Position numbers and translations under genes: made by a program. The notes beneath the pieces were generated by a model that made no database searches, was not told the DNA's origin, and saw only the letters and a program-made list of their open reading frames with translations. Positions 1,058 to 63,298 of a DNA stretch of 64,000 nucleotides are shown piece after piece. This stretch comes from Eledone cirrhosa (Eukaryota). Position 1 is the first letter of the stretch; every line of letters begins with the position of its first letter. The stretch covers positions 117,862,001 to 117,926,000 of the forward strand of contig OZ024741.1 of the NCBI GenBank assembly GCA_964016885.1, given 5' to 3'.

Positions 1058-1086
1058 ACTATATATATATATATATATAATGCATA

Positions 1087-1123
<37 letters not shown>

Positions 1124-7397: not shown

Positions 7398-7404
<7 letters not shown>

Positions 7405-7533
7405 AGAAATAGGACGAAGGTAAACAGTTACAAAAGGATTTAATCCACGTATTAACAATTGTTTCATAAGAATTTCAGTCCATTATTGCTACACTATGTT
7501 ATAATAGGCAATCAAGAAAGATACTGTGGCATC

Positions 7534-7566
<33 letters not shown>

Positions 7567-7852
7567 CAACTTTGTATTTTGAAAATTCGGATGCCACAGT
7601 ATCTTTCTTGATTGCCTATTATTACATAGTGTAGCAATAATGGACTGAAATTCTTATGAAACAATTGTTAATACGTGGATTAAATCCTTTTGTAACTGTT
7701 TACCTTCGTCCTATTTCTCTTTTTTGATTACACTCCTCGTTTGTTCGTGTTTCCACTACAGAATCCCTACCAACCTGTCGAGTCACCTTAACGTATGTTG
7801 ATAACTTTCCTCACAACTTGTTCTACCAAGCTTTGGAATATTCCTAATTACT
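7398..7852 (+). mobile_element. Fold-back palindrome (7398-7725) plus one-sided tail (7726-7852) in (TA)n; candidate variant HHR at 7573-7675
   Basis: ~140-bp near-perfect inverted arms. TGTATT-TTGAAAA...GAAA-CAATTG-TT-AATACG; stem II is irregular. Confidence 0.75.
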
Positions 7853-7869
7853 GTATATATATATATATA

Positions 7870-9157: not shown

Positions 9158-9365
9158 TGTATATATATACATATATATATATATAGTAATAATAATAAAT
9201 TTTAAGACTAAAATCCAAAGAGGGCTCGGTAAGGATGAATATATATCAGATATATAAGAACTGTAGAAGATCCCGTTAAGGGTGAAAGCAGCGATTCTTT
9301 GCTTAAACTTTAATCTGTTATTTTAATAAATATATATATATTGGCAACATGACCCTCCCAAAGTA

Positions 9366-21244: not shown

Positions 21245-24200
21245 TCTATATATATATATATATATAAAACGGTAGATGTCTGTCTGTCTGTGTGTATGAT
21301 TTTTATGCATTTCCACATTTCTCTACCGATTTTGATGATTTTTTTTCCAATGTGCTCTAAATTTACCAGGGCAGGTCAAGGCGTAATTATTTTTGCCAAA
21401 AGTTTCCTGCTTCTATGAAAAGAAATCGATAAAACTAAATACATGCTGTAATCCTCTCTCTTACACGCTTCATTCCTCTAACTAATACCATCAAAAATAT
21501 ATGAAACTACATACATGTTGCAACTCTCTTTAAAAGGTTCACCACTCCCTCTACTCCCCCCTCAATCTCCTCTGCAACTCTCTTCAAAAGGTTACTGCCT
21601 CCGTCTACTACCCTATATCACCATTACAGTTTAGAACAACAACAAAACTTCTTTTTGAAGGAACGCGACACAAACTTTGAAACCTAGGCAACACATCGAT
21701 TTATACAACAACCATAGCTTTACTCTTTCCGTCGCTCTTCCCTCTCTCTACAATAGATTATTCCCCCTCTCTATAATTTAACTGCTTTACTCTCTTCATG
21801 CTTCGAGGTTTAACACTAACTTTACTCTCTCCGTCGCTCCTCTCTCTCTATAATAGATCATTCCCCCTCTTCGTTCGGGAACGCGAAAAAAACTTTGATA
21901 ACTAAACAACACTCATACATCAAATATCAAAATTTAAAAGCCGATAACACTAAATACATACTGCTCTCTCAACGTTACATTTTACACACTTACATTTTAC
22001 ATCAAATAACAAATATTCAAAAGCAAGAGATGAATTTATAAAACAACAAACGTAACAATAATTGTTTCTATTTTTGGCACAAGGCCAGCAATTACCCAGT
22101 ACATTACTGGTACTTTATTTTATCGACCCCGTAAGGATGAAAGGCAAAGTTAACCTCGGCGGGATTTGAACAAACGTAACAATAATGACGCTTAAGCATT
22201 TATTTACATGATTCTCAACAAAGACATTATATTTTATTGTTGTCCTTTTTATAATTTTCTTTCTTTGTTTTTCTCAATATGAGACAAAAAATTAATGAGA
22301 AAACTTTTTTCACGGGATTCTATTCAAAGTGGGACAATTATTGCTTTTGGTCAGGAGAAGGTCATGAAGCAAAAAAATTTCAAATCAATCAACAATAATG
22401 ACAAAAATCGATCATGATCATTCCCCTCTCTATAATTTAACTGCTTTACTCTCTCTGTCGCTCTTCACTCCCTATATGACAACACTGCAGAGAGAGAAAC
22501 AATGTATATGATCAAATGGAGCGTTCCGTATATTCCCCCTCTCTATAATTTAACTGCTTTACTCTCTCTGTCGCTCTTCACTCACTATATGACAACACTG
22601 CAGTGGAGCGTTCCGTATTGACATACTGCTTATCTGGAGCATTTTCAATCGGCTATTGCAAATAACAACCCTCAAAATAACACTTCATATAACAGATTAA
22701 TGCTATAGACATATGAATCGGAATGTAACCCGTGAACTTTTTCCTGGGCAAAATTATTCGAACAGACATGACCTCATTGCCAGAGTGTTCAGACTGAAAC
22801 TGGCTAAACTCATGGCTTTAATCCAAAAGGTCAGGTATTTGGGGCTGTAAAATGTGACATGTTCACCGTCGAATGGAAAAAACGAGGACTGCCACATGCT
22901 CACATTTTGATTTGGTTAGCTAATAAAATCAATTCAAATGCCATAGACAGCTTCATTTCGGCTGAAATCCCTAACCCAGCAACTGACTAGGAATTATATG
23001 ACATCGTCAAAGCTAACGTGATCCGTGTGCGTCGGGTCCTAATGAGCATCGCACGTGTCTGAAAGGGGGGTCGTGCAGTAAGGGATACCCCCAAAAATTT
23101 GTTGACCAGACTCAGACTGGTGGCGACGGGTACCCTCTGTACAGGCGGAGACGGCCCGAGAACGGTGGCTTCACCACAACAGTAAGGGGAGGTCAAGTCG
23201 ACAATAGATGGGTGGTCCCTTACTGCCCGCTTCTCTTGAAGATGTTCAACGCCCACATCAACGTTGAGTTTTGCATCTCCGTCAAGTCGATAAAATACAT
23301 ATGCAAACATATAAATAAGGGCTCTGATGCCGCAATGTTCGCATTTCAAGCTGAAAATAGCAGGGACGAGGTCACAGAATACCTGGCGGGGCGGTACATC
23401 AGTAGCAATGAAGCTTTTTGGCGCCTATTTGGTTTACCACTACACCAACGTCACCCCGCCATCGTACAGCTTGCGGTACATTTTGAAAATTGGCAAAGGG
23501 TTTACTTTACGGACCAAACCGCCGCCAAGTTGGACGTCGATCCGAAAGAGACCACTCTGACGGGTTTCTTCAAACTTTGCCAGTTCGATACATTTGTGTA
23601 CTCCCAGGTTCCATCCTACTTTATATGGTCGAAAAACACTTGGGTGCTAAGAAAGTCAGGTCAGGCTGCTGAAAGACATCCTGGTATAAAATTTGACAGC
23701 TGTCTTGGAAGGGTTTACACTGTGCCTCCAAGTCAGCATGAATGCTTTCATCTCCGCCTTCTTCTGCATGAAGTTGTAGGTCCCCAAAGTTTTCAGGACC
23801 TCAAAAGTGTTGATAGAGAAATATGTGATACATACCGGGAAGCCTGCTTTAAGCGTGGTCTTTTGGAAGATGATTCGCAATGGGATTCCACTTTAGCAGA
23901 GGGTGCTTTGTTGAAATCACCTAAAGGTCTACGGGAAATCTTTGCCATTTTGCTTCAAAAGTGTGAATTGGGTGATCCCAAATCTTTATGGGTCAAGTAC
24001 AGAGACTTCATGTCTGAGGACTTCCTGCGCCTGGCTCATCTGCAGTATACTTCAGTGGAAGTTGGTTACAGCGACATTATCTACAACAGGGCACTCATTG
24101 ATATCGAGGACGCCCTCCTCGACATGGGTGGGAGTGAGTTGGCGACGTATGGCTTGCCGTCAACCGTGAGAGAGGAAGCTAACACGTTGGCCCCGGATTT

Positions 24201-25936
24201 GTTGCGGGAAACAGCATATGTCATCGAATCTCTTTCCCAATACTTAGAGGAAAATGAGCCCAAACTTCTGTCGGACCAAAGGTTGGCCTATTTAACTATC
24301 ATTGACGCGGTTCAAAATCAGACTGAGGGTATTTACTTTCTCGATGCTCCTGGGGGTACCGGAAAAACTTATGTAACGAAATTGATTCTCGCTAAGATTC
24401 GTCAGGAGAAAAAAATTGCGTTGTCCGTTGCATCGTCCGGGATCGCTGCTACTTTGCTGCCGGGAGGCAGGACAGCACATTCAACCTTTAAACACCCTTT
24501 GGATTTAGTAAACACTGAGACACCAAGATGCAATATCAGCAAGAGTTCACACGAAGCTCTGGTTCTCAAAAAAAATGTTGCCTCATTGTTTGGGATGAGG
24601 GCACAATGGCACACAAGGGTGCCCTTGAGGCATTAGACAGGACCCTGAAAGACATTAGGGATTCTACGGCTCCTATGGGTGGCGTAACCCTTCTTCTATC
24701 TGGGGATTTTCGGCAAACGCTTCCTGTCATACCCAAAGGGACAAGAGCTGATGAAGTGCGTGCCTGCCTTAAGTCGTCCATGTTGTGGCTCTAGGTGAAG
24801 AGTTTGTACCTGAGCACAAATATGCGTGCTCATTTGCATGGTGACACCATGTCTGCAGCATTTGCTCAGAATATCTTAGCACTTGGTGAGGGCAAGGTCC
24901 CTGCGGGTGACAAGGGTGGCATAGCAATCGACTACCTGTGCAACATTGTGAGCAGCCCTTCTGGCCTTTGGGAAGCAGTTTTTCCTAATGTCTCATCTAA
25001 CTTTAAAAACCTCGATTGGCTCAGCGAAAGAGCCATCCTTGCTCCGAAAAATACCATGGTTTATTTTATTAACGAGCAGCTGATTGGGAAGTTTCTCGGT
25101 AAAGAGCCATCTTCAAATCTATCGACCGGACGTCAGACCCCGACGATATCGTTAATTATCCGGTTGAGTTATTAAATTCCCTTGAGCCCCCAGGGCTCCC
25201 ACCTCACATTCTTAAGCTTAGGGTTGGCTGTCCCATTATGCTAATAAGAAACTTGCGTCCACCAAAGCAGTGCAACGGTACTCGCATGGTCGTCAAGTCA
25301 CTGACGCTCCACTTGATTTAGGCCACCATTGTAATGGGGTGCGGGAGAGGGGAGAATGTTTTCATTCCAAGGATGAACCTTTTCCCCTCGGCGTCAGATA
25401 TCCCGTTCGATTTCCGGCGATCCCAATTCCCGGTGAGACCATGTTTTGCCATGTCCATTAACAAGTCACAAGGGCAAACATTGTCGGTGGCGGGCATCCA
25501 TTTGGGGGAGCCATGCTTCTCCCATGGCCAACTTTATGTTGCCTGTTCCCGCGTAGGGAGCAGGAATGGACTTTTTGCTTACACTCCTCAAGGGATGACA
25601 CGCAATATCGTCTACAAAGAGGTGCTATAGATGTTGGTGCAGGTGTTGGAGCTATGCCGTCTAGAAAACTGGTAGGGTCACCCATAGCGGACAGATCTGA
25701 CACCCAGCGGCATCAGGGCCACCATCTTGCAACATTGGTCTACTAAATTCACTATTGGAAGATTATTAACCCATCATTGATTGTCCAAAATGCTAATTGG
25801 TTCGTAACTTTTAATAACCGGTTCAACTGCTTTATGCACTTAATTGATAAGTTTATGCACTTTCAAGCTACTTTACCTGTATGTAACTTTTCATAGCAAA
25901 TGAACAAACCCGAGCAACGCCGGGCTAAACTGCTAG
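21245..25936 (+). mobile_element. Helitron, internally deleted, with disrupted Rep-helicase
   Basis: 5' TC(TA)nAAAA; 3' hairpin CCCGAGCAACGCCGGG plus CTAG; inserted between A and T. Confidence 0.9.
22740..25630 (+). pseudogene. Helitron Rep (HUH)-PIF1 helicase pseudogene
   Basis: VEWKKRGLPHAHIL (HUH), FLDAPGGTGKT (Walker A), SSGIAATLLPGGRTAHS, GDFRQTLPV, FAMSINKSQGQT, HGQLYVACSR; several frameshifts and stops. Confidence 0.93.
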
Positions 25937-30336: not shown

Positions 30337-32391
30337 GACCTCTTTCAAATGATCAAAAATATTAAATTCAGGAAAGTCAACATACCTTTCCAAACGGACT
30401 TAAAGGAGAAACTTCTGAAAATGAAAAGTTCCCTGTACCTCCACGTCCCTTCAGACAAAACTAAAAACACCTATGCGGTTATTCCCGACACCTACAACAA
30501 GCTTGCGGATAATGCCATCACAGCAAAGTACAAATAAGTTGATGACACTACTTTGACTGAAACAAACATAGCCGGAAAGAAGATCGCCACTTCCCTTAAA
30601 CTGGAAGACCGGACAGAACCTCTGAGGGTAAAGTCCCCACACTTCACCCTGAAAGACCACAAGAACAACTTCGACAATAAACCGTCGGTCCGGCTGATTA
30701 ACCCGACCAAGTCTGACATAGGATCCGTCAGTAAGAAGATCTTGGACAGGATTCTACCTAGACTACGTACTGCCTCACCCCTCCCACTCTGGAATAGGAC
30801 ATCAGAGGCAATCACATGGTTCCGGGACTTGCCCGACAAAAGCAACACCCGCTTCCTGCAGCTAGACATCGAGGATTACTACGCCTCCATATCAGAGAGC
30901 CTGCTGATTGACGCGATTAACTTCGCCAGGAACTTAACCACTATTACCGAAGCCGAGCAGGAAGTGATCCTCCATGCACGTAAGACTTTTCTTTACCATG
31001 ACAGATCCCACTGGATCAACAAAAAATCTGAGACCCCTTTCGATGTTAGCATGGGTGCTAGCGACTCAGCTGAAATTAGTGACCTTGTGGGTCTGTTCAT
31101 CCTCCACAGGTTGAAGACCCTCTTCACAGGCCTCTCGGGCGGTCTCTACCGAGATGACGGCCTCTTTGCTCTCCACAAAATCAACCCCAGGACCACGGAT
31201 GGGTTCAGGAAAAACCTTTACACCTTCTTTAAAAACTTAGGCCTTAGGATTACCTTAGATTCGAACTTAACTAAAGCTAACTTCCTAGACATTACCCTCG
31301 ACTTAGAAACTTCCCTTTACTACCCGTACCACAAACCTAATGAATCCCTTAGATATATAGACGTTAATTCTAACCACCCCAAAAATATATTAGACAACCT
31401 AGTAAAAAGTGTCTCCATTAGGATATCTAGCCTCGCCGCCAATGAAGATATCTTTAGAGCAGCAGCCCCCTATTACAACGAGGCCCTGGCCCGCAGCGGC
31501 TTTAGAGATAAGATCACCTACCTTACTATAGCCCCACGCCCACCCAGGAAGAATAGGCGAAGGCACATTAGCTGGTACAACTTCAACCGAGAAGTTTCAA
31601 CACCTGTAGCAAAAATTTTCTTCACTCTCTTACAAAAACACTTCCCCACCCAACATAGGTACTATACTATCCTTAATAAGAATACCATTAGACTCTCTTA
31701 CTCCACCACACCTAATCTAGCTAGAAACTTAGCCAACAACAACATCAAGAAGCTAAATAAGTCTACTTTTTCCGAAGCCCATCCAGCAACCGATAGCAAC
31801 TGCAATTGCCCTGATAAGACGACCTGTCCTCTCAACAACAACTGTCTAAAAAAAGATCTCGTGTATATATGCGATGTACTCTCAGGCCCCGATGAAAAAA
31901 GAAACTCGTACATCGGGATGACTTCTAATAGTTTTAAGTCTCGCTGGTACGCCCACACACATTCGTTCCGGCGCCCAGACAAATCTAACCAAACTACACT
32001 CGCCGCCCACATCTGGCACCTAAAAAGGAACTCCATCCCCTTCAAGACCCAATGGAGACTACTCCAGAGAGCGCGATCATACACGGGAGGCCATAATTGC
32101 TGTGACCTCTGTATCTCCGAGAGCTATGAGATTCTATTCGCCAAAGGCCCTCTCCTCAACAAGATCTCGGAACACTCCCCTAATTGCATGCACAAGAACT
32201 ATGCAAATTACAAAAACTACAGACCCCCCGGCCCCCCGACTGACCACCCCCCCATATCACCACCCCGCCCCGCCCCCTTCCCATTTCCGTCCCTCCATCT
32301 CTCATTATTACCCTCTTTCCTCCCCTCTATCTCTCATTATTACCTTCTTTCCTCCCCTCCAGGTCTTATATATTGTGTTGTATACCTCTGA
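30337..32391 (+). CDS. Penelope-like RT plus GIY-YIG endonuclease (resembles Hydra-clade PLEs); 5'-truncated, one in-frame TAA at 30535
   Basis: FLQLDIEDYY, MGASDSAEISDLVG, LYRDDGL, NFLDITL, SNHP, CNCPDKTTCPL, LVY...YIGMT...FKSRWYAH. Confidence 0.92.
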
Positions 32392-33599: not shown

Positions 33600-33651
33600 G
33601 TGAATGTGTAGGTGTGCACACACACACACACATATATATATATATTTATAT

Positions 33652-35104
33652 ATATAGATAATTTAATATATCAACTAACATAAGCGCACAGATGCACGCC
33701 CATGCCAGCAAATACACAGGTTATGTCATAGTACCTAGGTGGTTCAATGCAGGAGAATGCAGAACAATAATATAAAGGACGTAAAATAAAAAAATATTTT
33801 TTTAAAAAAAATTTAAAAAAAATTTTTTTCTTACTTAAATTTTCACTCCAACTAATTAGTTTCTGCAATGGGATAAAGACAGTTACGTAATTCAACTGTC
33901 GAGAATTCATTGCGTCATCAGGAAGTCTATTCTCAGTTAAGTCTCCAGGCAATGCGCGGACACTGGCGGCTCATATAAAAATAATAATAATTCGGTAGAT
34001 CGAACAGCTTGCGAGGACTGAATTCTATGTACCGAAATTCTCACTGCTTCAAGTCAAATGGCCGATTCTAAAGAATCAATCACGTGACACAGAGGCTAGT
34101 TAGAAGGAATGGGATGGTAAGATGACTGACGCCTACTAACACCCCAAAAAAAAATTTTTTTAGAAGTGGTTTTGACAAGTTTGCTCGACAAATCAGTGAT
34201 TTGGAGATAAATATAGATAATTTAATATATCAACTAACATAAGCGCACAGATGCACGCCCATGCCAGCAAATACACAGGTTATGTCATAGTACCTAGGTG
34301 GTTCAATGCAGGAGAATGCAGAACAATAATATAAAGGACGTAAAATAAAAAAATATTTTTTTAAAAAAAATTTAAAAAAAATTTTTTTCTTACTTAAATT
34401 TTCACTCCAACTAATTAGTTTCTGCAATGGGATAAAGACAGTTACGTAATTCAACTGTCGAGAATTCATTGCGTCATCAGGAAGTCTATTCTCAGTTAAG
34501 TCTCCAGGCAATGCGCGGACACTGGCGGCTCATATAAAAATAATAATAATTCGGTAGATCGAACAGCTTGCGAGGACTGAATTCTATGTACCGAAATTCT
34601 CACTGCTTCAAGTCAAATGGCCGATTCTAAAGAATCAATCACGTGACACAGAGGCTAGTTAGAAGGAATGGGATGGTAAGATGACTGACGCCTACTAACA
34701 CCCCAAAAAAAAAATTTTTTTAGAAGTGGTTTTGACAAGTTTGCTCGACAAATCAGTGATTTGGAGATAAATATAGATAATTTAATATATCAACTAACAT
34801 AAGCGCACAGATGCACGCCCATGCCAGCAAATACACAGGTTATGTCATAGTACCTAGGTGGTTCAATGCAGGAGAATGCAGAACAATAATATAAAGGACG
34901 TAAAATAAAAAAATATTTTTTTAAAAAAAATTTAAAAAAAATTTTTTTCTTACTTAAATTTTCACTCCAACTAATTAGTTTCTGCAATGGGATAAAGACA
35001 GTTACGTAATTCAACTGTCGAGAATTCATTGCGTCATCAGGAAGTCTATTCTCAGTTAAGTCTCCAGGCAATGCGCGGACACTGGCGGCTCATATAAAAA
35101 TAAT
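33652..35104 (-). repeat. Tandem array, ~2.6 copies of a 559/560-bp unit, one HHR per unit (retrozyme-like)
   Basis: Essentially identical units (ORF-track offsets 33671/34230/34790); flanked by (TA)n. Confidence 0.93.
33845..33926 (-). ncRNA. Hammerhead ribozyme with long stem II; identical copies at 34404-34485 and 34964-35045
   Basis: ACTTC-CTGATGA-CGCAATG...GACAGTT/AACTGTC...CATTGCA-GAAA-CTAATTAG-TT-GGAGT. Confidence 0.85.
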
Positions 35105-38311: not shown

Positions 38312-38356
<45 letters not shown>

Positions 38357-38361
<5 letters not shown>

Positions 38362-38861
38362 AAATTGAGGTTGGTAATGGCACATGGAATATATAAGAGA
38401 CAGAATACTTTTTTGTGAAAAAACATAATTTTATAAGGTAAGGAAATAATAAAGGGTATAAAAAATGACCGGTTTCGATGGGTCTGCAAAAGCCATCTTT
38501 TCAAATGTTGATTAATATTAAGAAAAATTAATAATACGAAGAGTTAAAATTTGAGACTTGAAAATTCAAGTATAAAATTCATTGTGGGATCTCATAGCAG
38601 TTTTCATCTTGGTAGCAACAACAGGTTGACTGCTGTGTCCCTTTCTGGTAGTGAATGAGAAGTTATTTGGGGTGTGGGTTATTTTATAAAGGTCAGATTT
38701 AGCAATCACCAACTGGCCAGCTGCTGGTCAGTGAGGGGGTGGAAGCAATATACATACACATATCTTCCTGTGATGGGTAGGAGAGTGGAGCGTGATAGAA
38801 AGGGATTTAGTGCACTTACACCTATATATACACACACACCTTCATCCACACATACATATAC

Positions 38862-38898
<37 letters not shown>

Positions 38899-39321
38899 CA
38901 CACATACATACACACACACACAGCAGCTGGCCAGTTGGTGATTGCTAAATCTGACCTTTATAAAATAACCCACACCCCAAATAACTTCTCATTCACTACC
39001 AGAAAGGGACACAGCAGTCAACCTGTTGTTGCTACCAAGATGAAAACTGCTATGAAATCCCACAATGAATTTTATACTTGAATTTTCAAGTCTCAAATTT
39101 TAACTCTTCGTATTATTAATTTTTCTTAATATTAATCAACATTTGAAAAGATGGCTTTTGCAGACCCATCGAAACCGGTCATTTTTTATACCCTTTATTA
39201 TTTCCTTACCTTATAAAATTATGTTTTTTCACAAAAAAGTATTCTGTCTCTTATATATTCCATGTGCCATTACCAACCTCAATTTTCTCTATAACCTTCG
39301 CTTTGTGTAGAAAATTACACT

Positions 39322-39325
<4 letters not shown>
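38357..39325 (+). mobile_element. Fold-back element: 370-bp arms (38357-38726 / 38921-39290), short tail; variant HHR at ~39139-39185
   Basis: Near-perfect arms; TTGAAAA-GATGG(...)CCATC-GAAA-CCGG-TC; stem I weak. Confidence 0.88.
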
Positions 39326-39357
<32 letters not shown>

Positions 39358-42303: not shown

Positions 42304-45300
42304 ATGACCCTCCCCAAGTATAACAATATTTGTTTCGACACACGATTTCATATAAAAAACCTCACAAAACTAATTCATCGTCGCTATGGCACTAGCTTGT
42401 GCCAAGCTGAAAGGTTATTGAAAGACACTGTTTTCTGTTATATAAAAACTACAATAACAACAGAACAAATCCACTTCTTAAAACACTGTGTTTCCTTCAA
42501 AATATACACAACAAACATATCAAAACAAGTAAATAATTTATTATTGAACAAATCACAAGCTGAACGACTAAAACACACAATAACAGTTAATATGAAAAGA
42601 ACAACATACACAAAAGTTAACGAACTTTACAGACAGAAACGCATTAACGGTAAGGAAATCCGAAATCTCATCACACCAAACGAGAGGGATAACTTCATGA
42701 GCGACATTCGACGTGAAACGAAATACGCTCGAAACGAATGCAATAGGCATTTCAATAAGAAATTAGAATGGATGAATAAGAAAAAACTACAAGAAAGGAA
42801 AATCGAATATTCTCATAAATACCCAGATAACATCGACAATATCCGTATGACTGATGTAAAACTACCGGAAGAATTTACCAATGACCACACAGTAAATATT
42901 TATGGGAACACTTTAATCAGTGAACAAGAACAACAAATCCTGCGGCTCCCACCAAAATTTGCCATTTACAAAAAGATTAACCCTATGGAGTGCAAAACGG
43001 CGCTGGAAAAGTGTTTCACAAAAATACGTTGGAATGCAAAGGTAAACAACAACAACAACAACAATAATAACGGTAGTAGTAATATAAACAATAACTCTGA
43101 GTAAAGAAATAACAGCCATGACAATAACAATAGCAGGAAAGTGAGAAATAATGATAATGGTAATAATACTAGCGATAGACAGAACAACAACAACCACAAT
43201 AATAATAATAATAGAAACATTAACCACAGACACAGCAGCAGCGACCACAGTAGTAATAACGCTAACAATACGAACAACAACAACAATAACCACAGTGGTA
43301 ATAATGGAAATAGTACATGTAGCAACATCAATGATAGACACAACAAAAACAAGAAACATAATAAAAGTAACAACCACAATGGTAGAAATAACAGTAACAA
43401 CAACAACAACAATAACGGTGAAGTAAACAACAATACATCTAGCAATCATAACAATAATAATAATGCTAATGATAGAAACAACAACAACCACCATGATAAC
43501 AATAATAGCAACACACACAACTATGACGATAGATATAATGACAACCCCTTAGAGAAACTATTTTTCAACCCAGCTGACAAAACATATAAGATGGGCAATA
43601 TCTATCCTACGAGGTTACCCTTTAATAAAAGAGTTTGCATACCACAACAAATAGATGACGAGACAGAGGCACAGTTCACCATAGCTAGAAATAAGATTAG
43701 ACAAATAGTAGACAGGTATACTAAGAGACAGAGCAGACCAGAGGCCCAATAACTTGGGAGGAAACCTGTAGAAGGCTTGGTTAGCCTCAAGCAGCGCACA
43801 AGGGATGGTGAGGTAGTAAGTCTACCCACGGATAAGTCTGGTAGGATGTCAATAGATAACATGCCGAACTACATCAAGGTTATGCAACCCCACATCACCA
43901 ACACGAGCGAAATTGCACAACAAACACACGATGGGAGAGAGAAAATCCTCAACGCTCACATGATGATGTGGACTGACATCCTAAAGCCAAGCAGACGCAC
44001 TGCCAACAACTTCCAGGCGTCTAACAATGGCATACCACCCTTGTATGGGCTCCGCAAAGACCACAAGACAGTCGACGACCCGACAACAGGACCACCAACA
44101 AGACCCGTATGCGGAGCTAATATAGCTAGCAACTACAGGATCTCCTACTTCCTCTCTAATGGTTATACGCTCCATGATCAAGATGTCCCCAGATGTATGT
44201 GACAGTACGGAGGACCTCCTCAGCAGAATCAGTGAGTGCAACAAAAACAGGAACCTATCCAACTGCATAATAGGCAGCATGGATGTGGTGTCACTGTACC
44301 CATCCATTAACATTGATTTTGCTGTGAAAAGATGTGTGGAGATGATCATTGAGAGTGAGGTGGAGTTCTGCGACGTCGACACAGACGAACTGGGCCTCCT
44401 ACTTAGACTTACCTACGACACTGACTACCTAGACAGCCATGACCTTAGATGTTTCTGCCCTAGTAGACCTATAAGAGGTAGACCCCCCACCATAACCTCT
44501 ATGGCAAAAAAGACTTCCATGGGAAGGTGGATTGGGTGGACAAAAGCTATACGGACCCCCCAAAACAATGATCAGGTAAGAAAAATGGTCGCACATGCAA
44601 TAGGGGCTAGTATCAAAACTACCCTAAAGGGCCACATAGTTAAGTTCAACGAGAAGATCTACACCCAAAATGAGGGAGCAGCCATCGGCGTCAGCATAGC
44701 TGGTGATGTTGCCAACCTTTTCATGGTATGGTGGGAAAGGAGACTTAAAGATCTCCTTAATGAGAGCTCCATAGACCTCATCATGTACTCTTGTTATGTA
44801 GACGATATCAATATAGTTATAAGAACACCCCCACTAGAGAGCACTAACAAGTTTGATTTAGAACGTAGCACGATGGAAAGCATCCAGCAGATAGCTAATT
44901 CCATACACCAGAGTATAACTGTAACTATCGACTTCCCTTCCAAACACCCTAACAATAGACTACCTGTATTAGACACAGAACTCTGGATTAACACTATAGA
45001 CGAGAGAGCCCAAATTCTCCACTCACACTATGCTAAACCCATGGCCTCCAAATACCTGATACTCAAAAACTCAGCAATGTCCAGTAGTGCTAAGTTTAAT
45101 ATTCTGATCGCAGATTTGGTACGAGTGATGAAGAATGTGTTCCGCATGTGCGACCCAACAGAAATGGAACGACACATCCAACACTTCATCAACCGCATGC
45201 AGTTCTCTGGCTACAACCAAAGAGACAGAGTCAGAGTATACGAAGGAGCCATGGAAAAGTATAAGACCCTCATAGAACTGGACATGAAAGGAATTTGCCC

Positions 45301-45952
45301 ACTATACAGGAGAAAATCATGGAATAGTTTAGATAGGGCTAGACATAAGATAGGGAAAGCCACCTCATGGTACGACAACAAGAGATACCAGAGTGTCATG
45401 TTTGTGGACGCTACCCCTGGAGGAAAATTAGCTAACCAGTGTAGAAAGGCCCTGAGAAAGACCCACTTAAAAATAAAGGTGGTAGAAAAGCCAGGAACCA
45501 CCATAAAATCCCTGATCAGCAAAACCTACCCTTTTAAGAAAACCCACTGTACCAATAGGAAATGTATCATATGTAAGGTGAACCCCCGGATAAACAGTAA
45601 AACTAGAAACGTAGTCTATAGCATAAGATGTACAGAGGTTACCTGCAGAAACATGACAACAACATACATAGGTGAGACAGCTCGTAGCATAGGTGAAAGG
45701 ATAGACCAACACTGGGGGGAACTAAAAGGACGAAAAAACGGGTCAGTACTATACGAACATGCTAGACAACAACATGACGGTAACATAGACAACATAGAAA
45801 TTAGAATAATATCTAAACATAGAAATGACCCAGCAGATAGGAAAATCAGAGAGGCCAGTGAAATAGAAATTAGAAGACCAAGGCTAAACAGAAAGAATGA
45901 ATGGAATAACAACAACACCCAAATAAACAACACTGACCTAAGAGAAGTATAA
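42304..45952 (+). pseudogene. PLE ORF: N-terminal domain, Asn-rich insert, RT, C-terminal GIY-YIG; two in-frame TAA (43102, 43750) and a frameshift near 44160
   Basis: LPTDKSG, PLYGLRKDHK, RPVC, SMDVVSLYPSI, QNEGAAIG, YVDDI, LPVLD, NVVYSIRC...YIGETARSIGERIDQH. Confidence 0.92.
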
Positions 45953-46516: not shown

Positions 46517-48937
46517 ATACTATTTACAGTTATGTATATAGTATAAACAACTATAAACAGGAAGGTCAGTAATTTCCTTTTACCTTATTACCAGTAAGAG
46601 AAATAGCTCACTGTATGAACATCAGTTGTTTCACAGAGGAGGAAAATAAATAAATTATACAATTATCAGAGTTGTGTTCAAATCATTAAATAGCAGACAA
46701 TCGTTTCTTCCAAACTCTCATTTGAAGTCATCGGAATCATTCAATCACCCTTTCAATCTAAACATCTCTACCAACTTGCCTAAGGCTTTCTTCTCAATCT
46801 TAGAAAAAACTTCCCGACCGGCCACAAGTACCATAACCTTATCAATAAACATACAATTAAAATATCGTACTCCACCACACCTAACATAGCATACCATATA
46901 GCTAGTAGTAATAAAAGGAAAATTAATAATTATTTCCAACTAATTAAAACACAACAGGAGGTAAACTTAGTACCTGTAAACAATAGTAGTAATAATAGTA
47001 ATAATGATAATAACACTAATGAAATCAATAACAATACGAATGATAGACATCATTACCCTAGTGCTATCCCTAGCAACCAGAATTCTTCACAACATAGGAA
47101 CCGGCAAGCTAACACCCAGAATAAATGTAACTGTAGAACTAATAGAACTTGCCCCTTAGGTAATAATTGCTTAACGAAAGACAACGTCTACTCATGCACC
47201 GTCAACGCAAACAACTCTTCTAAAACATATATCGGCTCTACTTCGAACAGCATCAAGACGAGATACAACTCACACCTCCACTCTTTCAAGAAACACAATC
47301 TAGCCAACTCCACTTCTTTATCTAGCTACGTACACTCTCTGAAAACTAGGAATAGACCATTTACACTGCAATGGGAAGTAGTAGGTAGGGCATCATCGTA
47401 TAAACCACCGAATAAATTGTGTAATCTCTGTCTTCTAGAGACCCATACTATAGTCTTTTCGAAACCAGACCTCCTTAATAAAAAGTCGGAGACATTTTCC
47501 TCGTGCCAACACCGATACCGTCACTCTTTCCATAACTTTAAACCTAGCTGTTAGTATTTATCAATGTCAGATTTGAATTCTCCACCACATTTAACACTTC
47601 ACACTCTTTGATCAGCTCTTCCTTCTACACAACACCGATGTACCTCTAACCTTATACTCTGCAATAACTGTTAGAATTAAACATAAAGTTACCACCTTTT
47701 GGTATAACTAGTATAGCTTAATTATATTATATAAAGTAATGGATATTTAATATGTTGGGACATTTAATGTAATATGTAATAATAAATTAGATACACATGT
47801 ATCTAATTAAATACTTAAATTAATAACATGTATATAAGGGATCTACCTTTAACACAATGTAGTAATAATAAAGTATATATACATTTATATTTAAATATAT
47901 AATGTAATAGCATTGTATGCATGGGATTAATTTTTAAACAATAATGTATATTGTTGCATATGTGATATATCTAGTTAAATATATAAACAGCTATTTTCCA
48001 TAACATATATCTTGTCCAGTAATGAATGGATAACAATCTTAAGGGACCTTTAATGTATTATAATAAAACACACTGTGTTTAAAATCAAGTATAAATGTAT
48101 AGCATTATGTAATAGAGATTCTATTGTATCACATTATAATGTGTATTAGAGCAAAGATTTTGAATAACTGAATTTAATTAGCTAGTTACCTCCCCTTACG
48201 CATTAGTTCCCCTTACTCACTTCCGGATATTTTAACCGTTAGAAAACCTAGCTGTTGAACTAATGTAGACCATGTATATGAATACAATAAGACTAATTTA
48301 CAATCCATTGCTTTAACTAACTTAAACATTCAATATAAACATTAACTAAAATATAATTCAACATATGTAATGGAAGAGACTGCAATAACTTTATTCTCCT
48401 CAACACACACAAATTCAGACACTATCAACAAACTACGTCCACCTTAGATTTTAATACAATACAGTTTTGCTTAAAACACAGTATTTATTTATCTATAGAT
48501 ACATAATAACTTTGCTTATTTCCTTCTCATATGTATGTCTAACGCATGTGCACTTTCTACACACCTGCATATGTATTGCTAATGATCTCTTTCTTTCTCA
48601 AAGCTCCTTTCACAATGGACTATTGGACTATTCTCTTGTATTATGTGTTGCATGTATTCCACTCTGTGCTTTTAATTTTAATTTTAATTTTAATTTTAAT
48701 TTTAATTTTAAATTTTGTACAATTATCGTAAAATATATGTCACATCCATTCCACCCTGTAAATACGAAACTGTTGCTCACAGCATCAATATATATGTATC
48801 TATATTATTGTTCAGTTGAATAGGAGGCTAATTACATGTACAAACATTGATAATGCTCCGATGATTCCAAATGAGAGTTTGGAAGAAACGATTGTCAGCT
48901 ATTAAATGATTTGAACACAACTTTGATAATTGTATAA

Positions 48938-51620: not shown

Positions 51621-52005
51621 TGCACCTTTTGAACAGGATTGAACCCAACCGATTCTAGTTACTACCACTAGGCCACAGAGACAACTACGAAAGTCTTATG
51701 AAAATTTATACTTATTCAAAATTTTCAAAACAAAGTGTTGTGGTGTCGTTCATATCTTTCTTAATGTTATTGCTCCTACTTAAGGTCGACTTCTAAATCA
51801 TTTGGGTGTTCCATAAACTACATCCTCGTTTTGTTTCTCATCTATCTAGACTACATTTTAACCTGCAATCCATGTATCATTTCTGTTCCACCTCATTCCC
51901 CCCCCCCTCTCTGTGATATTTGAATCTACTATGATTTGGGCTTACCTTATTCCTATATATATGTTTTTGCTTGTCAGTTAGATTCAAACTTACAATGATT
52001 GGCAT

Positions 52006-52041
<36 letters not shown>

Positions 52042-52044
<3 letters not shown>

Positions 52045-53700
52045 GAAGAAGAGACCCTACCCCAAGTAGACCCTATAGAGGGCCAGCAGTACAAGTCAGC
52101 AGCAGCGTAGTAAGTAAGGCAATCAAAGATATGAAGATGGGGAAGGCAACCGGTCCATCGGGTATAGCTGCCGAGATGCTGAAGGCATCTGGGTCTGTAG
52201 GTCACATTATAACCACACGTATTGTTAACCAGGTAATACTAGAAGGTGTCATACCAAAAGATTGGTGCAGTAGCATCATTGTCAACTGCTACAAAGGTAA
52301 AGGCGATGCACTAGATAGAGGAAACTATAGAGGTATAAAGTTGATGGACCAGGTCATGAAAGTAACAGAAAGAGTTATAGCACAGTTGATTAGGGACCGG
52401 GTGAAAATAGACGAGATGCAATTTGGGTTTGTACCAGGAAGAGGCACCACTGATGCCCTCTTCCTTGTGAGGCAATTACAGGAAAAGTACCTAGCTAAAA
52501 GTAAGCCACTCTACTTGGCATTTGTCGACCTTGAGAAAGCCTTGACAGAGTTCCACGTGCTGTAATCTGGTGGGCTCTTAGAAAACTAGGAGTAGATGAA
52601 TGGCTTGTGAAAGCGGTACAAGCCATGTATAGGGGAGCAGTCAGCAAAGTTAGGATTAGCAATGAGTATAGCGAGGAATTTAGCGTACAGGTTGGGGTCC
52701 ACCAGGGCTCTGTTCTTAGCCCTCTCCTGTTCATCATAGTCCTGCAGGCAATAACGGAGGAGTTTAAGACCGGATGCCCATGGGAACTCCTGTATGCTGA
52801 TGACCTCGCACTCATAGCTGAATCTATGGTAGAACTAGAGAATAAATTCCAAACTTGGAAGCAGGGACTAGAAAGAGTCTCAAAGTCAACATGACAAAGA
52901 CTAAGGTCCTTGTAAGTAGACGAGAAAACAGAACCCAGATCCCCTCAGGGAAATGGCCTTGCTCAGTATGTAGGAAAGGTGTAGGTAGGAACTCCATTCT
53001 CTGCCCCAAATGCAAACAATGGGTACACAAGAGATGTAGTGGGATCTCAGGAAGCTTAACTAAGAATGTAGGCTTCACATGCAGCAGCTGTGCTGAGACA
53101 GCAAGCAGCAAACAGCCACAGGAAACAAGTACCACCAATCTCTGGGAGGGCTCTGTAGAAACAGTAGACAGCTTCTGCTACCTAGGTGACCGAATTAGTA
53201 GCGGAGGTGGGTGTTCAGAAAGTACAATAACTAGGGTAAGAACAGGATGGAAGAAGTTCAGGGAGCTACTGCCACTGCTAGCTGCAAAAGGCTTTTCCCT
53301 CAAAATGAAAGGCAGACTGTATGATGCATGTATCCGAACAGCGATGTTGCATGGTAGTGAGACCTGGGCGCTGAAGGTGGAAGACTTACGTAGATTAGAG
53401 AGAAACGAAGCCTGCATGCTCCGATGGATGTGTAACAGTAATATACGTGAACGACAAAGCATAAATGAATTGAGAGAGAGACTGAGCATAAGATGAATCA
53501 AATGCTGTGTGCAGGAGAGGCGGTTGCGCTGGTATGGACATGTGATGCGTATGAAGGATGACAGCTGCATAAAAAGGTGCAGAGCACTAGAAGTCATTGG
53601 AAACCGCAGAGTGGGGAGACCCAAGATGACCTGGGATGAGGTGATAAAAGCCGACCTTACCCAATTACACCTCTCAAAGGCGATGACACACGACCGTGAC
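52042..53700 (+). mobile_element. RTE-clade LINE, 5'-truncated RT region with a Cys-rich insert; frameshifted
   Basis: KATGPSGI, YKGKGD, NYRGIKL, QFGFVPGRGTTDA, FVDLEKA, GVHQGSVLSPLLF, LLYADDL, CSVC...CPKCKQWVHKRC, FCYLG. Confidence 0.93.
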
Positions 53701-54275: not shown

Positions 54276-54473
54276 AAGGCAAATTTGACCTCGGTAGAAT
54301 TTGAACTCAGGCTGTAAAGGGCCGTAACTCTATGCTGCAAAGCATGGCGTCGAACCTCTGCCAATCCATCCATTGGCGGTGGATCATAATAGTAGGGAAT
54401 TTGTTGAAGAGATGGCCGTCTTCTGTAAAGAAGTGGCAGTTATCAGTTATCCACTTCACAGTGAAGTGAAGTA

Positions 54474-54697
54474 AAAGAGTGAGGACGATAGAAAGTTACC
54501 ATACCAATTTTTCATGATCCCAGATATTTTCGGATTTGCCATCTATTATCAAGAAAAGTTAGTATGGGGTACTTTAGAGAGAAACCTGAAAAATGCCTCT
54601 CTGAGGTCCCCACTACGGATTCCCCTTGATAATGAATGGAAAATCCGAAAAAAATGGGATCATTAAAAATTGTAACTTTCTATCGTCCTCACTCTTT
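54474..54697 (+). repeat. Older, diverged fold-back palindrome with a candidate TTGATAA-core HHR
   Basis: AAAGAGTGAGGACGATAGAAAGTTAC / GTAACTTTCTATCGTCCTCACTCTTT; TCCCC-TTGATAA...ATCC-GAAA...TGGGA. Confidence 0.6.
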
Positions 54698-57845: not shown

Positions 57846-59650
57846 TTAGCTGTAGACTTTATGGAATGTTCTATGGAATTTATGCAAGCAGAGAGAAAAC
57901 AAGTCAGTGCGTCTATTTATTATAGAATCTAAATTAGATATAATGGTAAATTTTTCATTTAGACAGATATTGCAAGTCTTGGATAGAGAACTGTTCAAGT
58001 ATGTCGAAGCAGAGGAAACCTTTTTCCAAGAGATGTTATATTTAATATTTTTGTCTTTCAAGGACCATATGAGTTCTGAGAGAGCCGTGTTGGTTCTTTT
58101 AAGTTGGTATTTAAAAGACGAATGATGATTATAAAGACGAGCTTTAAAAGAGGTGGAAGTGGAGCCAAAATAGGTGAAGGAATTGGTGTCAGTAATAACT
58201 TTACATTCGTAGATTAAGTTTTTATCAAGACAATGGTTGTTGAGAGGACATTTATTTTTAACATGGCAATTGCAATTGCGATTAGAGAGATTATTAACGA
58301 GTGACCTAGTATTATCTATAGAAGGAATTGGATTGGAGAAGTTATTTACGATAGGAATAATAGTTTCTTGATTTAGAATGGGATTAAGAACATTTAGCGA
58401 AGTTGTGTTTGACGTTGTATTTGGGTTTGCAGAAATTAGCCTAGAGTTTACAATGACGTCGGGAGTGCTATTACTATTATTATGATATTCAGTGTTGGAA
58501 GGAAGAGATTTAGTATTTAGTATTTTATTGTTGTGTTTAGAGATAATGTTGGAAATGTTGGAGGATGTCGAACAGGAAAATTTTATAGTGTGTTTGTTAA
58601 ATATTTTACTATATATATGTGAAGGAGGGAAGCATTTATTTAAGGCACTAAAGAATAATTTAGGAATATTATTATTAATAGAGATGGAGAAAGGAGCATT
58701 ATACCAGATTATGTTTTTGTATCTAGGTCTTTTATTAAAGTTATTGGAATGATCATGATTAATTATTCTACTGTAAGATCTTCTAGAATTCGTTTCTTGA
58801 CTAGATTTGATTTTATCAGGATAGCCGGCTTTAGAAAGCGCGTTATTATAGTAATTGGCGTTAGCATCAAAGATATTTGTATTAGAAGATAGGTTAGATA
58901 TTCTTTTTCCAATATTACTAACTATAGCATTCTTAATATTAGTGGGGTGGTTAGATCTAAAATTAACATAATTTAGGTTCTCATTGTTTTTATGGTAAGG
59001 GTAATATAGGCCAGTGTCAAGATTAGGAGATACATCCAAGAAATTAGCTAGTTTGATGCTGTTATCAAATTCAATTTTTAATTTATGTTGGTTAAAGAGA
59101 TTACGTATATTGTTCTTAATAATATTAAGGTTAACTATGTTGCAATTTAAGATAGTAAAGAGTCCATCGTCACGATAAATTCCACCGCGAAGTTGAGGAA
59201 TTTTCCGACTCAAAGAGTTCAAAATAAAGATACCAATTAAATCTGTCAATTGGGATGAATCGGATGCTCCCATTGTGATGTCGAAGTTGTTAGAGGTATC
59301 AGCTCTGGTCCAATATTCATTGTTGAATTCTAGGATGGTTTTACGTGCGGTGAGAATGTTGTGAAGTTCATCTGTGGTGATGTCAGAATATTTAAATGCG
59401 AAAGATAGAGCATTGTTGAGAAGTGAAGGCGAAATAGAAGAATAGTAGCTGGCAATATCAAATTGAACAAATTTTAGTTTGTTTTTATTATTCAATTTGT
59501 TGAACCAGCCAATCACTTCAGAAGTACCAAACCATAAATTTAAGTTCAAAGAAGAGCAATTAGAACGAACCTGTGGGATAATTCTATCCAAGATGGCTTT
59601 ACTAACAACCCCCAGATCTGATTTAGAGGGGGCGATTAATCTAACACGTA
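57846..59650 (-). CDS. Penelope-like RT plus GIY-YIG (Hydra-clade-like), 5'-truncated; element spans ~56807-59718
   Basis: [58 protein letters not shown]...[16 protein letters not shown]. Confidence 0.92.
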
Positions 59651-59714
59651 GTACAGTACGAAAATTGTTTTATTGTAAGAGACTATTTTGAGTTTCTAAC
59701 TCAATATATACCTT

Positions 59715-59913: not shown

Positions 59914-60610
59914 TCTAGGGCGGGTAAAATTCCCGAGATCCATAGACGAGTTCTCTCCAGCGGTCTCTGTCCCTCATTATCGCTGCAATGTCCTGCGTCT
60001 CCAACAGACCAGTGTCTGTCCTTAGGGCATCAACATATGTTAACCTCGGTCTTCCACTTCCAGTGTGTACATGCAGGGGCTCGCACGGGAGCTCTGAGTT
60101 TTTCATCCTCAGTGTATACTGATTAATGTTCAGAGCCATCCTCAGCATTCTCGTGCAGCACCCATCCACCATCTGAGTGAGTTTCTTGGTCAGTGTCCAT
60201 GTCCCAGGCCCGTAGAGCAGCACAGACCCCACTACAGCAACGAAGAGGCGGATCTTCAGGTATTTACGAACATCCGACTTCCACACCGATCTCAAGCTGT
60301 GGCACGCCGCCCAGGCTTTGCTCTTCCTCTCTAGCACATCATCTTCCGTGTTCCCAATCTTTGCTCCCAAATACAGGAAGTCCTCAACCAATTCTAGCGG
60401 CTTCCCGCCTACATTAGTAATCTTCTCTGGCTTCTTAATACTCTCACCAGATATTTCGTCTTCATCTCATTCATTCTCAGCCCCACACTCATCGACACAG
60501 TCTCCACCTCCCGCATCAAATCCTCTTCCCCCTTCACTGTGTTTGTCACCAAAACTATGTCGTCGGCAAATTCAGCATCCGATATCTTTTTCGCCTTAAC
60601 TCTCCTGCTT
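59914..60610 (-). mobile_element. RTE-like LINE 3' fragment, same family as 1640-2576
   Basis: [24 protein letters not shown]; ends CCGCCCTAG into (TA)n. Confidence 0.88.
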
Positions 60611-61949
60611 TAAGACGGTCCTGGGTATGACATTAAACTACATCCAGTGGCAAGGCTCCAGTTCGGGAGTTCAGGAGCTGTGGGGAATGTGGAGTTACCC
60701 CTTAGTTGTCATAACTCCCAGGTCTGCTCTGGCCCGGAGTAGTAGTACCTGTTAGGGCCACATTTATGGGTTACCTCGCCCTCAAACCCCATAATGACCC
60801 GGGGGGGGTAGACTAGGGCTATAACACCCCACTTGCCGATTTTGCAATGGGTAACCCCTGCTTGCCAAGGGAGACGTAAGATCTTCTTTGTATTCTTTTA
60901 TCGCTTCCTTTATTTCCTTCCTTCCCCCTCTCTCCTTAGTCCTTCTACCCCAGCTCTTCTCCTTTGTCGGCGTCTTTTCTCGCCCACCCGAGGCTGCCCT
61001 TTGGCCCCTTGTAGCCTTAGTACCCCCACCCCCTCCCCTAGTCTAGGATAGATTTGGCGGACTCCGCCCTTTATAGCAGTTGGTTTAGACCCCGGATACT
61101 TGTCCCCTTTTTCCGACCGCTCCCACTATTCTCTGTGCCCTCTATATTTCTTAGTGGCACTTATGCCTTATTTTTTCGTTTCAGTATTTCTTTCTTCGCT
61201 TTTCTTTTGGGCGGGGTGGATTCTGAATTTATTCTTCCGTATTCTACCTTTACTTCGTACGAACTTTCATGTAGCTTGTTTTAGATCTTTTAGAGTTAGC
61301 ATTAGTATATATTTTTCTCGGGACTCAGAATTATTATCTCGTATTAGTTCACTTTGCTGCACTGGGTGGTTGCTGGAATTGTGCCCGGGATGGAAACCTT
61401 TATTGTTTATTTCGTGGTAGTCTCTTTAGTATTTTGGCCCCTTTTGTTGACCCGTCACGGTATCATTTACGTACTTATACCTCTTAAAAGGGTCCTCGCC
61501 TATTCCGTCCCACCTAGTTCTTTTACTTATTTCGTTATTTCTTTATTTCTTTCTTTACTTCTTTCTTTATTTATTTATTTATTTATTCTAGACTAACAAT
61601 AGCTAGAGACCTAGGTCGTAGAATTTAATTTACTTTACTTTTTTCTTTACACTCATTTGTTTTTCTTTACACTTATTTGCTTTTCTTCACTCTCAGTATT
61701 TTTTCTTTCCTATATATTTCTACCCCCCATTGTTCTACCTACCGTTCCGACTTCCTCCCCTTCCCCCTCCCCTGTATCTTCTTTGACCTCATGCCCAGCT
61801 GTAACTGGCACTACAAACGCTTGATTGGGGCTACTCCACCCCCTCCCCTCTTTCTCTTACTGGCAGGTTTAGCCACCATCTCCCCTACTAATTTGCAACC
61901 ACAGAATTACTACCGATTTTTGACAATCACTTTGACCATATATGGAATT

Positions 61950-62043
61950 ACCCCTTGAGAAGATCGGCTATTTAAATACCAGGATAAATTTTCATTTAGT
62001 CCAGAATTAGCCGTCGAAACGGCTTGAGCTCAGCTGCCGGGGT
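61950..62043 (+). ncRNA. Variant (U3:A8) hammerhead ribozyme; only complete copy of the GAGCTCAGCCGTC family, at the end of a long pyrimidine-rich UTR-like tract (~60775-62136)
   Basis: ACCCC-TTGAGAA-GATCGGCTA...TAGCCGTC-GAAA-CGGC(TTGAGCTCA)GCTG-CC-GGGGT; the 19.4-kb sister copy has GCCG-TC (GUC). Confidence 0.72.
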
Positions 62044-62134
62044 CTTACTGGTTCCTATTACCCACTCTACTACCTCAAGTATTGAGTACTTTGGTGCGTT
62101 ATGGTCCACCTGGTTCTTTACCACATTTCCTTCG

Positions 62135-63298
<1,164 letters not shown>

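What the first reader, a model, noticed from the sequence alone, without database searches (positions are those of the whole stretch)
61950..62043. Compensatory U3:A8 hammerhead core (TTGAnAA) recurring in independent families
Seen: TTGAGAA (61955), TTGAAAA (39143, both arms), TTGAAAA (7579) and TTGATAA (54626, both arms) each sit where CTGAnGA belongs, upstream of stem II, GAAA and a stem III. Established: C3 pairs with G8 in the active HHR fold, and U3:A8 preserves that pair. Inference: a double change in up to four unrelated families suggests selection for function rather than decay; standard CUGAnGA searches would miss them. The 61.9-kb case has three good stems but a mutated cleavage triplet; the others have a weak stem I or II.
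Basis: partly seen in the sequence, partly recalled or inferred. Interest (0 to 1): 0.75.

Follow-up and report, generated by a model that had tools for sequence, protein, structure and literature searches.

The report
U3-A8 hammerheads in Penelope retrotransposons
The four odd RNA motifs are the normal form in four repeat families, three of them protein-coding Penelope-like jumping genes; this swapped core pair is already published, but here it likely arose at least four separate times, and one lineage likely kept spreading for a while with the pair broken, which suggests that the predicted self-cutting is only weakly needed.

Summary
Real, but the variant is known. TTGAnAA is the majority state in all four families (61.9 kb: 74 of the first 100 of 7,176 matches, and 61 of 61 cores in 30 full-length elements; 39 kb: 100/100; 7.6 kb: 98/100; 54.6 kb: 22/32). 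In 1.2 Mb of random genome, hammerhead-shaped hits were C3:G8 58, U3:A8 22, C3·A8 3, U3·G8 1 (shuffles about 1 or fewer each). Three families are pLTR hammerheads of Penelope-like elements (two Hydra-type, one Neptune/Nematis-type). The protein trees need at least four G8/A8 switches; one origin is rejected within the Hydra clade (AU p=7e-7). U3-A8 is published for Schistosoma PLEs (PMC4209133) and other natural hammerheads (PMC3088659), and this scan noted it before, in this and other genomes. New here: the 61.9-kb lineage likely went U3:A8 → C3·A8 mismatch (14 of 15 loci in three successive subfamilies, about a quarter of copies) → U3:A8, and its sister lineage carries U4A. So pairing is favoured in the long run, but cleavage is likely dispensable in the short run. 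The window's GCC triplet is a private mutation. No cleavage was tested.

The parts
61950..62043 (+). Type I hammerhead of family f61 (Hydra-type PLE). Stem I 61950-54/62039-43, core TTGAGAA 61955-61, long stem II 61962-62015, GAAA 62016-19, near-palindromic stem III, triplet 62036-38 = GCC (private; family GTC). This copy is predicted inactive.
60771..62141 (+). 5'-truncated f61 copy: last bases of the ORF, the 3' pLTR and the ~100-nt tail, ending in (TA)n; 95% identical to full-length element L123
39138..39185 (+). Minimal type I hammerhead of family f39 (Neptune/Nematis-type PLE): core TTGAAAA 39143-49, stem II GATGG/CCATC, GAAA-CCGG-TC palindromic stem III, GUC triplet 39178-80, weak A/U stem I with a C·U mismatch
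38322..39343 (.). Head-to-head pair of f39 pLTR ends; the inverted arm carries the second hammerhead at -38504
7573..7675 (+). Hammerhead of family f7 (Hydra-type PLE): core TTGAAAA 7579-85, long stem II opened by U·U (this copy has a private change that weakens it further), palindromic GAAACAATTGT, GUU triplet, 6-bp stem I
7398..7869 (.). Head-to-head pair of f7 pLTR ends; the inverted arm is truncated before the core
54620..54662 (+). Decayed minimal hammerhead of old family f54 (about 80% identity between copies): TTGATAA, extra U, GGAT/ATCC stem II, GAAAATATT, UUU triplet, CCC/GGG stem I in the family majority; no linked ORF found
54470..54581 (-). Inverted arm of f54 with the second TTGATAA at -54552

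Best explanation
The four motifs are hammerhead-shaped RNA elements that carry U3:A8 as their family state, three of them in the pseudo-LTRs of Penelope-like retrotransposons; the pair likely arose several times from C3:G8 and is predicted to allow slow, dimer- or protein-assisted self-cleavage that helps the element in the long run but is likely not needed for each jump. Shown: family states, linkage to RT/GIY-YIG ORFs, covariation across families, at least four G8/A8 changes on the protein trees, and a run of C3·A8 subfamilies between older and younger U3:A8 subfamilies in f61. Inferred: two single transitions through a mismatch state that can still transpose, followed by weak selection (helped by AT-biased mutation) back to a Watson-Crick pair. 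Cleavage itself is untested.
For: Family states. Full-length f61 elements: 62 ORF matches at 99-100% identity; all 61 cores found in 30 of them are TTGAGAA. L123, L127 and L125 carry the motif in both pLTRs, sense to the ORF. Covariation in 24 random 50-kb blocks: 80 of 90 hits are C3:G8 or U3:A8, shuffles 10.2 hits in all. Trees: 4 changes forced in 25 rows (quick tree); 3 forced among 15 Hydra-type rows, one A8 clade rejected (p-AU 7e-7), f61+f7 together rejected (1e-51). Mismatch phase: 24 of the first 100 matches are C3·A8 (counted by eye), true T>C changes, 14 of 15 loci in subfamilies B-D against 4 of 47 in the others, and 24% of depth in public run X1. Literature: U3-A8 in Schistosoma PLEs and low, dimer-type activity of min-HHRs (PMC4209133); covarying 3/8 pairs active in vitro, as cited in PMC3088659; a PLE hammerhead is protein-assisted and not needed for insertion in vitro (PMC11167929).
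Against: No cleavage or RNA data here. In one type III hammerhead scanned for all double mutants, only the G:C swap rescued the 3-8 pair; the other single and double mutants there had low activity (PMC9901934, passage). The f39 monomer is predicted to fold into another hairpin. f7 and f54 have U17 triplets and weak stems. No pile-up of 5' ends at the f61 cut site: 0 of 64 alignments begin within 3 nt of it, 41 begin 30-46 nt upstream. Several G8 labels on the trees rest on one decayed copy assigned by eye, and 4 of 25 rows have no label. The T>C share at U3 is only 4% in the small run X6 (one contig). The subfamily tree uses 171 columns, and its bootstrap had not settled.
Confidence: 0.78

Rival explanations
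1. The core is a catalytically silent relic kept as a structural or protein-binding signal. U3:A8 comes from AT-biased drift in master elements, with the 3-8 pair kept for folding, not for cutting.
For: The C3·A8 phase in f61 and U4A in 33 of 35 rows of the sister family show that deviant cores spread; no cut-site ends; catalytic mutants still insert in vitro (PMC11167929); both changes are C>T and G>A.
Against: Drift alone does not explain why mismatch states are rare across families (4 of 84 hits), nor why GAAA, U16.1, a non-G at 17 and palindromic stem III persist in families with unrelated stems; f61 returned to U3.
Confidence: 0.13
2. Cleavage is strictly required, and the C3·A8 copies are either a recurrent slippage error at the CCCC/TT boundary or stay active through a shifted C3:G7 pair (nearly all subfamily B-D cores read CTGAGAA).
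For: Sporadic C3·A8 occurs in 4 of 47 loci of the other subfamilies, so the site is mutable; G7 accompanies C3 in subfamilies B-D, with one exception.
Against: 14 of 15 in B-D cannot be per-copy slippage (p=1.5e-9; loci share ancestry, which is the point); both arms of inverted pairs carry C3; loss of position 7 is not known to be tolerated (recalled, no call).
Confidence: 0.06
3. U3:A8 arose once and was spread between PLE lineages by pLTR recombination, so the families are not independent.
For: PLE insertions are nested and template jumps are plausible; f54 has no ORF and its tail looks faintly like that of f7.
Against: Stems I-III are unrelated between f61, f39 and f7; three A8 lineages have a G8 sister with starred support; the f54-f7 tail similarity is not significant (53 of 500 shuffles score as high).
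Confidence: 0.03

Closest known systems
U3-A8 minimal hammerheads of Cercyon Penelope-like elements, Schistosoma mansoni (Cervera and De la Pena 2014, PMC4209133; parts 1-2 of 4 read)
   Same: Same core covariation (about 1,300 hits against about 2,000 canonical there), type I topology, place in pLTRs, palindromic helix III, inverted pairs 100-700 bp apart; extra base after A9 in f54.
   Different: Here the pair occurs in Hydra-type and Neptune/Nematis-type PLEs of one genome with at least four switches; f61 has a full helix III and a long helix II; a C3·A8 phase and a U4A sister family are not described in the parts read.
Natural U3-A8 hammerheads (Perreault et al. 2011, PMC3088659; passages)
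   Same: C3-G8 covaries to U3-A8 in several natural ribozymes; the paper cites in vitro activity of covarying pairs.
   Different: Scattered examples, with no retroelement phylogeny or intermediates in the passages seen.
Poseidon PAc hammerhead of Anolis (PMC11167929; passages)
   Same: pLTR hammerhead; two reverse-transcription start sites that give a 'tail' (f61 copies end at +20 or +100 from the cut site in 54 of 64 alignments); no ends at the cut site.
   Different: Canonical C3:G8; activity was measured there, not here.
Hydra clade of C-terminal-EN PLEs (Craig et al. 2021, PMC8557442; passages)
   Same: f61 and f7 have DKT and the CxCX5C linker, f61 has RWR for RWK, insertion into (TA)n, pLTR plus tail plus inverted 5' copy.
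   Different: That paper reports canonical HHRs as universal in Hydra; here two Hydra-type lineages carry U3:A8 and one carries U4A.

Membership tests
Type I hammerhead ribozyme | Core N3-UGA-N-N8-A ... GAAA with a Watson-Crick 3-8 pair | tested here: met
   U3:A8 majority in all four families; not met in f61 subfamilies B-D (C3·A8)
Type I hammerhead ribozyme | Three helices round the core, helix I open | tested here: met
   f61 folds so as a monomer; f39 and f7 pass the descriptor; f54 by alignment only
Type I hammerhead ribozyme | NUH triplet | tested here: met
   GUC (f61, f39), GUU (f7), UUU (f54) in the family majority; not met in the window copy at 62036-38 (GCC)
Type I hammerhead ribozyme | Match to Rfam hammerhead models | tested here: not met
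   No hammerhead hit at E<=10 for 61.9 kb or 39 kb; the other two sites were not scanned alone, and hid its 29 lowest rows
Type I hammerhead ribozyme | Site-specific self-cleavage | not testable with these tools
   No assay; no 5'-end pile-up at the f61 cut site in genomic copies
PLE minimal hammerhead (min-HHR) | In the pLTRs, sense to the RT-EN ORF | tested here: met
   L123, L127, L125; not shown for f54
PLE minimal hammerhead (min-HHR) | Short or palindromic helix III that allows a dimer | tested here: met
   ACCGGT, ACAATTGT, AATATT, near-palindrome in f61; dimer energy below twice the monomer for all nine folded copies, fold not checked to be the active one
Hydra-clade PLE (f61, f7) | DKT, RWK-like motif, CxCX5C linker, C-terminal GIY-YIG, (TA)n target | tested here: met
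   motifs against the PMC8557442 passage; RW motif seen in f61 only; no named reference sequences in the tree
Neptune/Nematis PLE (f39) | DKG motif and CX2-5CxxC linker before a C-terminal GIY-YIG | tested here: inconclusive
   Both motifs present; Neptune and Nematis not told apart without reference sequences
Non-LTR retrozyme | Tandem units each with a hammerhead, no ORF | tested here: not met
   The four sites are dispersed or head-to-head, three tied to ORFs

The most novel reading that the evidence does not exclude
This genome holds a fossil record of a ribozyme crossing a fitness valley: a master retroelement lost the catalytic 3-8 pair (C3·A8), made on the order of 1,700 copies across three successive subfamilies, then regained the pair, while sister lineages switched between C3:G8 and U3:A8 at least four times. 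PLE hammerheads would then be weakly selected passengers whose cleavage is optional for transposition in vivo, and the natural series U3:A8, C3·A8, U4A, C3:G8 makes the open question of what PLE hammerheads do directly testable.
Probability: 0.5. Interest if true: 0.62.

Novelty: new member of a known kind. Interest (0 to 1): 0.42.

Why it matters
The variant itself is not new, but CUGAnGA searches miss about a quarter of the hammerhead-shaped motifs in this genome (22 of 80 paired-core hits). The role of PLE hammerheads is still open (PMC8557442 calls it unclear; PMC11167929 finds cleavage unnecessary in vitro). A natural, ordered series of paired, mismatched and re-paired cores within one recently active lineage gives ready-made test material, and genomic support for weak rather than strict selection on cleavage.

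Tried and rejected
(1) GCC triplet as an editing-activated (A15.1·C16.1) ribozyme: GCC looked common, but that was a search bias towards the query's private base; 100 of the first 100 genome matches are GTC, and 99% of depth in X1. Rejected. (2) Cut-site scars (lead from e1-8643110): 0 of 64 f61 alignments begin within 3 nt of the cut; tested for f61 only. (3) f54 as a relative of f7: not significant; no ORF within 1.5 kb of 30 copies. (4) RNA evidence: no RNA holder listed; the runs laid are contigs of unknown kind. (5) Pfam gave nothing for the f61 and f39 proteins; homolog search returned almost only unnamed proteins, so clades rest on motifs. (6) Primary kinetic papers on 3-8 exchanges were not held; I have no rate for C3·A8 or U3:A8. 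(7) The careful 25-row tree did not finish and the quick tree is cited; one search's tree failed and was redone without two truncated rows, L339 (C3·A8) and L385 (U3:A8). (8) One search's tree was biased (C3·A8 copies fetched without their U3:A8 kin) and is replaced. (9) A third random batch could not be fetched, so the sample is 1.2 Mb. (10) Literature searches for a C3·A8 phase or repeated origins in PLEs showed none; subscription papers are not covered and no supplements were read (those of PMC4209133 and PMC8557442 may list more core variants).

Full report
Setting. The window is G000:C2:117862001-117926000 of a 3.0-Gb genome, rich in (TA)n repeats and retroelement remains. It looks like a cephalopod genome; that is my impression and comes from no call.

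Observation. TTGAnAA alone is common (85 in the window), so I scored the whole structure with a descriptor that leaves positions 3 and 8 free. In the window it gave 16 hits: 13 C3:G8 and 3 U3:A8 (+61955, +39143, -38504), against 0.04 U3:A8 hits per shuffle. The copies at 7579 and 54626/54552 fail as single copies. Rfam finds no hammerhead at 61.9 or 39 kb.

Family states. f61 (61.9 kb): 7,176 genome matches to the core pattern; of the first 100 listed, 74 are U3:A8, 24 C3·A8, 2 U3·G8 (one inverted pair) and none C3:G8 (counted by eye). Its 3' half has 34,916 matches, the first 100 all GTC, so the window's GCC is private. A protein search gave 62 ORF matches at 99-100% identity; in the 30 fetched, 61 of 61 cores are TTGAGAA and 59 of 60 triplets GTC. 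f39: 2,167 matches, 100 of the first 100 TTGAAAA, and no other base at the core at 3% or more in two public runs. f7: 256 matches, 98 of the first 100 TTGAAAA. f54: an old family, 22 of 32 aligned rows TTGATAA, none with G8 in a complete core; 5 of 6 exact matches U3:A8 and one C3·A8.

What carries them. L123 (f61), L127 (f39) and L125 (f7) are elements with the motif in both pLTRs, sense to an RT plus C-terminal GIY-YIG ORF; L123 and L127 also have an inverted 5' copy. By the motifs in PMC8557442 (passages), f61 and f7 are Hydra-type (DKT, CxCX5C) and f39 is Neptune/Nematis-type (DKG, CX4CxxC). f54 shares only about 400 nt between copies and no ORF was linked.

Covariation. In 24 blocks of 50 kb at round coordinates (1.2 Mb), 90 hits passed: C3:G8 58, U3:A8 22, C3·A8 3, U3·G8 1, others 6; shuffles gave 10.2 hits in all, 0.5 C3:G8 and 1.0 U3:A8. 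They fall into 26 C3:G8 and 11 U3:A8 clusters, of which about three U3:A8 clusters look like noise or a mis-set 3' end. Hits within a family are not independent.

Independence. I linked ORFs to the nearest hammerhead of the same element, partly by eye and sometimes from one decayed copy. In 25 rows (21 labelled), the quick tree forces four G8/A8 changes: f39 with a relative, f61, f7 with a relative, and one more. In the 15 labelled Hydra-type rows the careful tree forces three, each A8 lineage with a G8 sister; one A8 clade is rejected (p-AU 7e-7), as is f61+f7 (1e-51). C3:G8 as the ancestral state is inferred from its majority, not from a root.

The new part. The C3·A8 copies of f61 are true T>C changes with shared diagnostic bases, present on both arms of inverted pairs, and include near-full-length elements (L329, ORF 90% identical to the active one). 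I fetched one arm of each C3·A8 locus and 40 of the 74 U3:A8 hits among the first 100 (mostly skipping the active subfamily and inverted partners), masked position 3 and built a tree of 62 rows, four of them from earlier loci. It is a ladder: A (24 of 27 U3:A8, 4.9% from its majority), B (3 of 4 C3·A8), C (2 of 2), D (9 of 9), then E-H (18 of 20 U3:A8; the two active copies 0.5%). A 100/100 branch of 0.07 changes per site lies inside the C3·A8 stretch. B-D are 14 of 15 C3·A8 against 4 of 47 elsewhere. Public run X1 shows T>C at 61955 in 24% of depth; the small run X6 shows 4%. Scaling 24% to 7,176 gives about 1,700 copies (extrapolated). Limits: 171 columns, unsettled bootstrap, root on the three most diverged copies. 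The sister lineage of f61 carries CAGAAGA (U4A) in 33 of 35 rows, at least one a duplicate locus.

How it likely works. Each pLTR transcript can fold a type I hammerhead: f61 does so as a monomer, while f39 is predicted to misfold alone. U3:A8 keeps the Watson-Crick pair at 3-8. Palindromic helices III point to dimers, as proposed in PMC4209133, where min-HHR activity was low. In Anolis PAc, single changes at 3 or 8 (C3G, G8C) abolish cleavage, cleavage needs the element's protein, and dead ribozymes still insert (PMC11167929, passages). That fits f61: copies end at +20 or +100 past the cut site (54 of 64), none begins at it, and 41 of 64 begin 30-46 nt upstream, inside the hammerhead. I infer that a mismatch core can transpose, which opens a two-step path between the pairs, and that weak selection restores pairing. 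Against high activity of U3:A8: in one type III ribozyme only the G:C swap rescued the pair (PMC9901934, passages). I found no rate for C3·A8.

Known or new. U3-A8 is in print for PLE hammerheads (PMC4209133, parts 1-2 of 4 read) and for other natural hammerheads (PMC3088659, passages). PMC13282606 (octopus repeats, passages) has no mention of hammerheads. The bioRxiv preprint 10.64898/2026.07.22.740005 (part 1 of 5) and PMC7151607 (one passage) added nothing on this point. My searches showed no report of repeated origins on a PLE tree or of an amplified C3·A8 phase; subscription papers and supplements were not seen. Earlier notes of this scan report U3-A8 PLE hammerheads in this and other genomes, one with a U·G half-way state; searches for this sequence and for a C3·A8 phase returned nothing.

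Verdict. Observation confirmed, interpretation partly supported, new member of a known kind; interest 0.42, carried by the repeated origins and the mismatch phase.

Noticed in passing
G000-wide; e.g. L329, L330, L331 (C1:54261300-54265500 and others): f61 subfamilies B-D carry C3·A8 (about 24% of cores), between older and younger U3:A8 subfamilies.
   Followed up: yes
window 9265-9287 (+, truncated copy); L069, L278 and many random blocks: Abundant sister family of f61 whose core reads CAGAAGA (U4A) in 33 of 35 rows, with stems I-III present.
   Followed up: partly
f61 family; window 61993-62009 marks the zone: Most short copies start 30-46 nt upstream of the cut site, inside loop/stem II, often as head-to-head palindromes; the 3' half has about five times as many matches as the core. 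It may mark a transcription start or an RT stop.
   Followed up: partly
window 33648-35066: Three tandem 560-nt units, each with a canonical hammerhead on the - strand (33921, 34480, 35040): retrozyme-like or a short PLE tandem.
   Followed up: no
window 126(+), 11925(-), 16081(-)/16235(+), 37090(-)/38058(+), 42083(+)/46204(+), 56899(-), 63588(-)/63755(+): Canonical C3:G8 hammerheads of other families, many with AUA or GUU triplets; only the 16-kb pair is in Rfam's listed rows.
   Followed up: partly
window 30337-32391(+), 44126-45952(+), 46784-47554(+), 57846-59669(-): Four more PLE ORFs or ORF ends, used in the tree; no hammerhead found for the first and third.
   Followed up: partly
f7 and several canonical families: A U·U opposition opens helix II in 5 C3:G8 and 2 U3:A8 hits, so f7's weak stem II is not peculiar to the variant core.
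   Followed up: partly
window 39211-39245, run X6: Clustered T>C and A>G differences absent or nearly absent from run X1, like A-to-I editing of the inverted arms; the run's kind is not on record and alleles are not excluded.
   Followed up: no
window 23017-25175(+), 7994-8656(-), 561-1923(-), 51999-53496(+), 59915-60466(-): Helitron-like Rep/helicase, Tc1/mariner-like transposase and LINE-like RT fragments, named from recalled motifs.
   Followed up: no
f54 family, upstream of window 54620: A pyrimidine tract ending in CAG lies about 30 nt before the core, like the intron end reported next to the D. virilis Penelope hammerhead.
   Followed up: no
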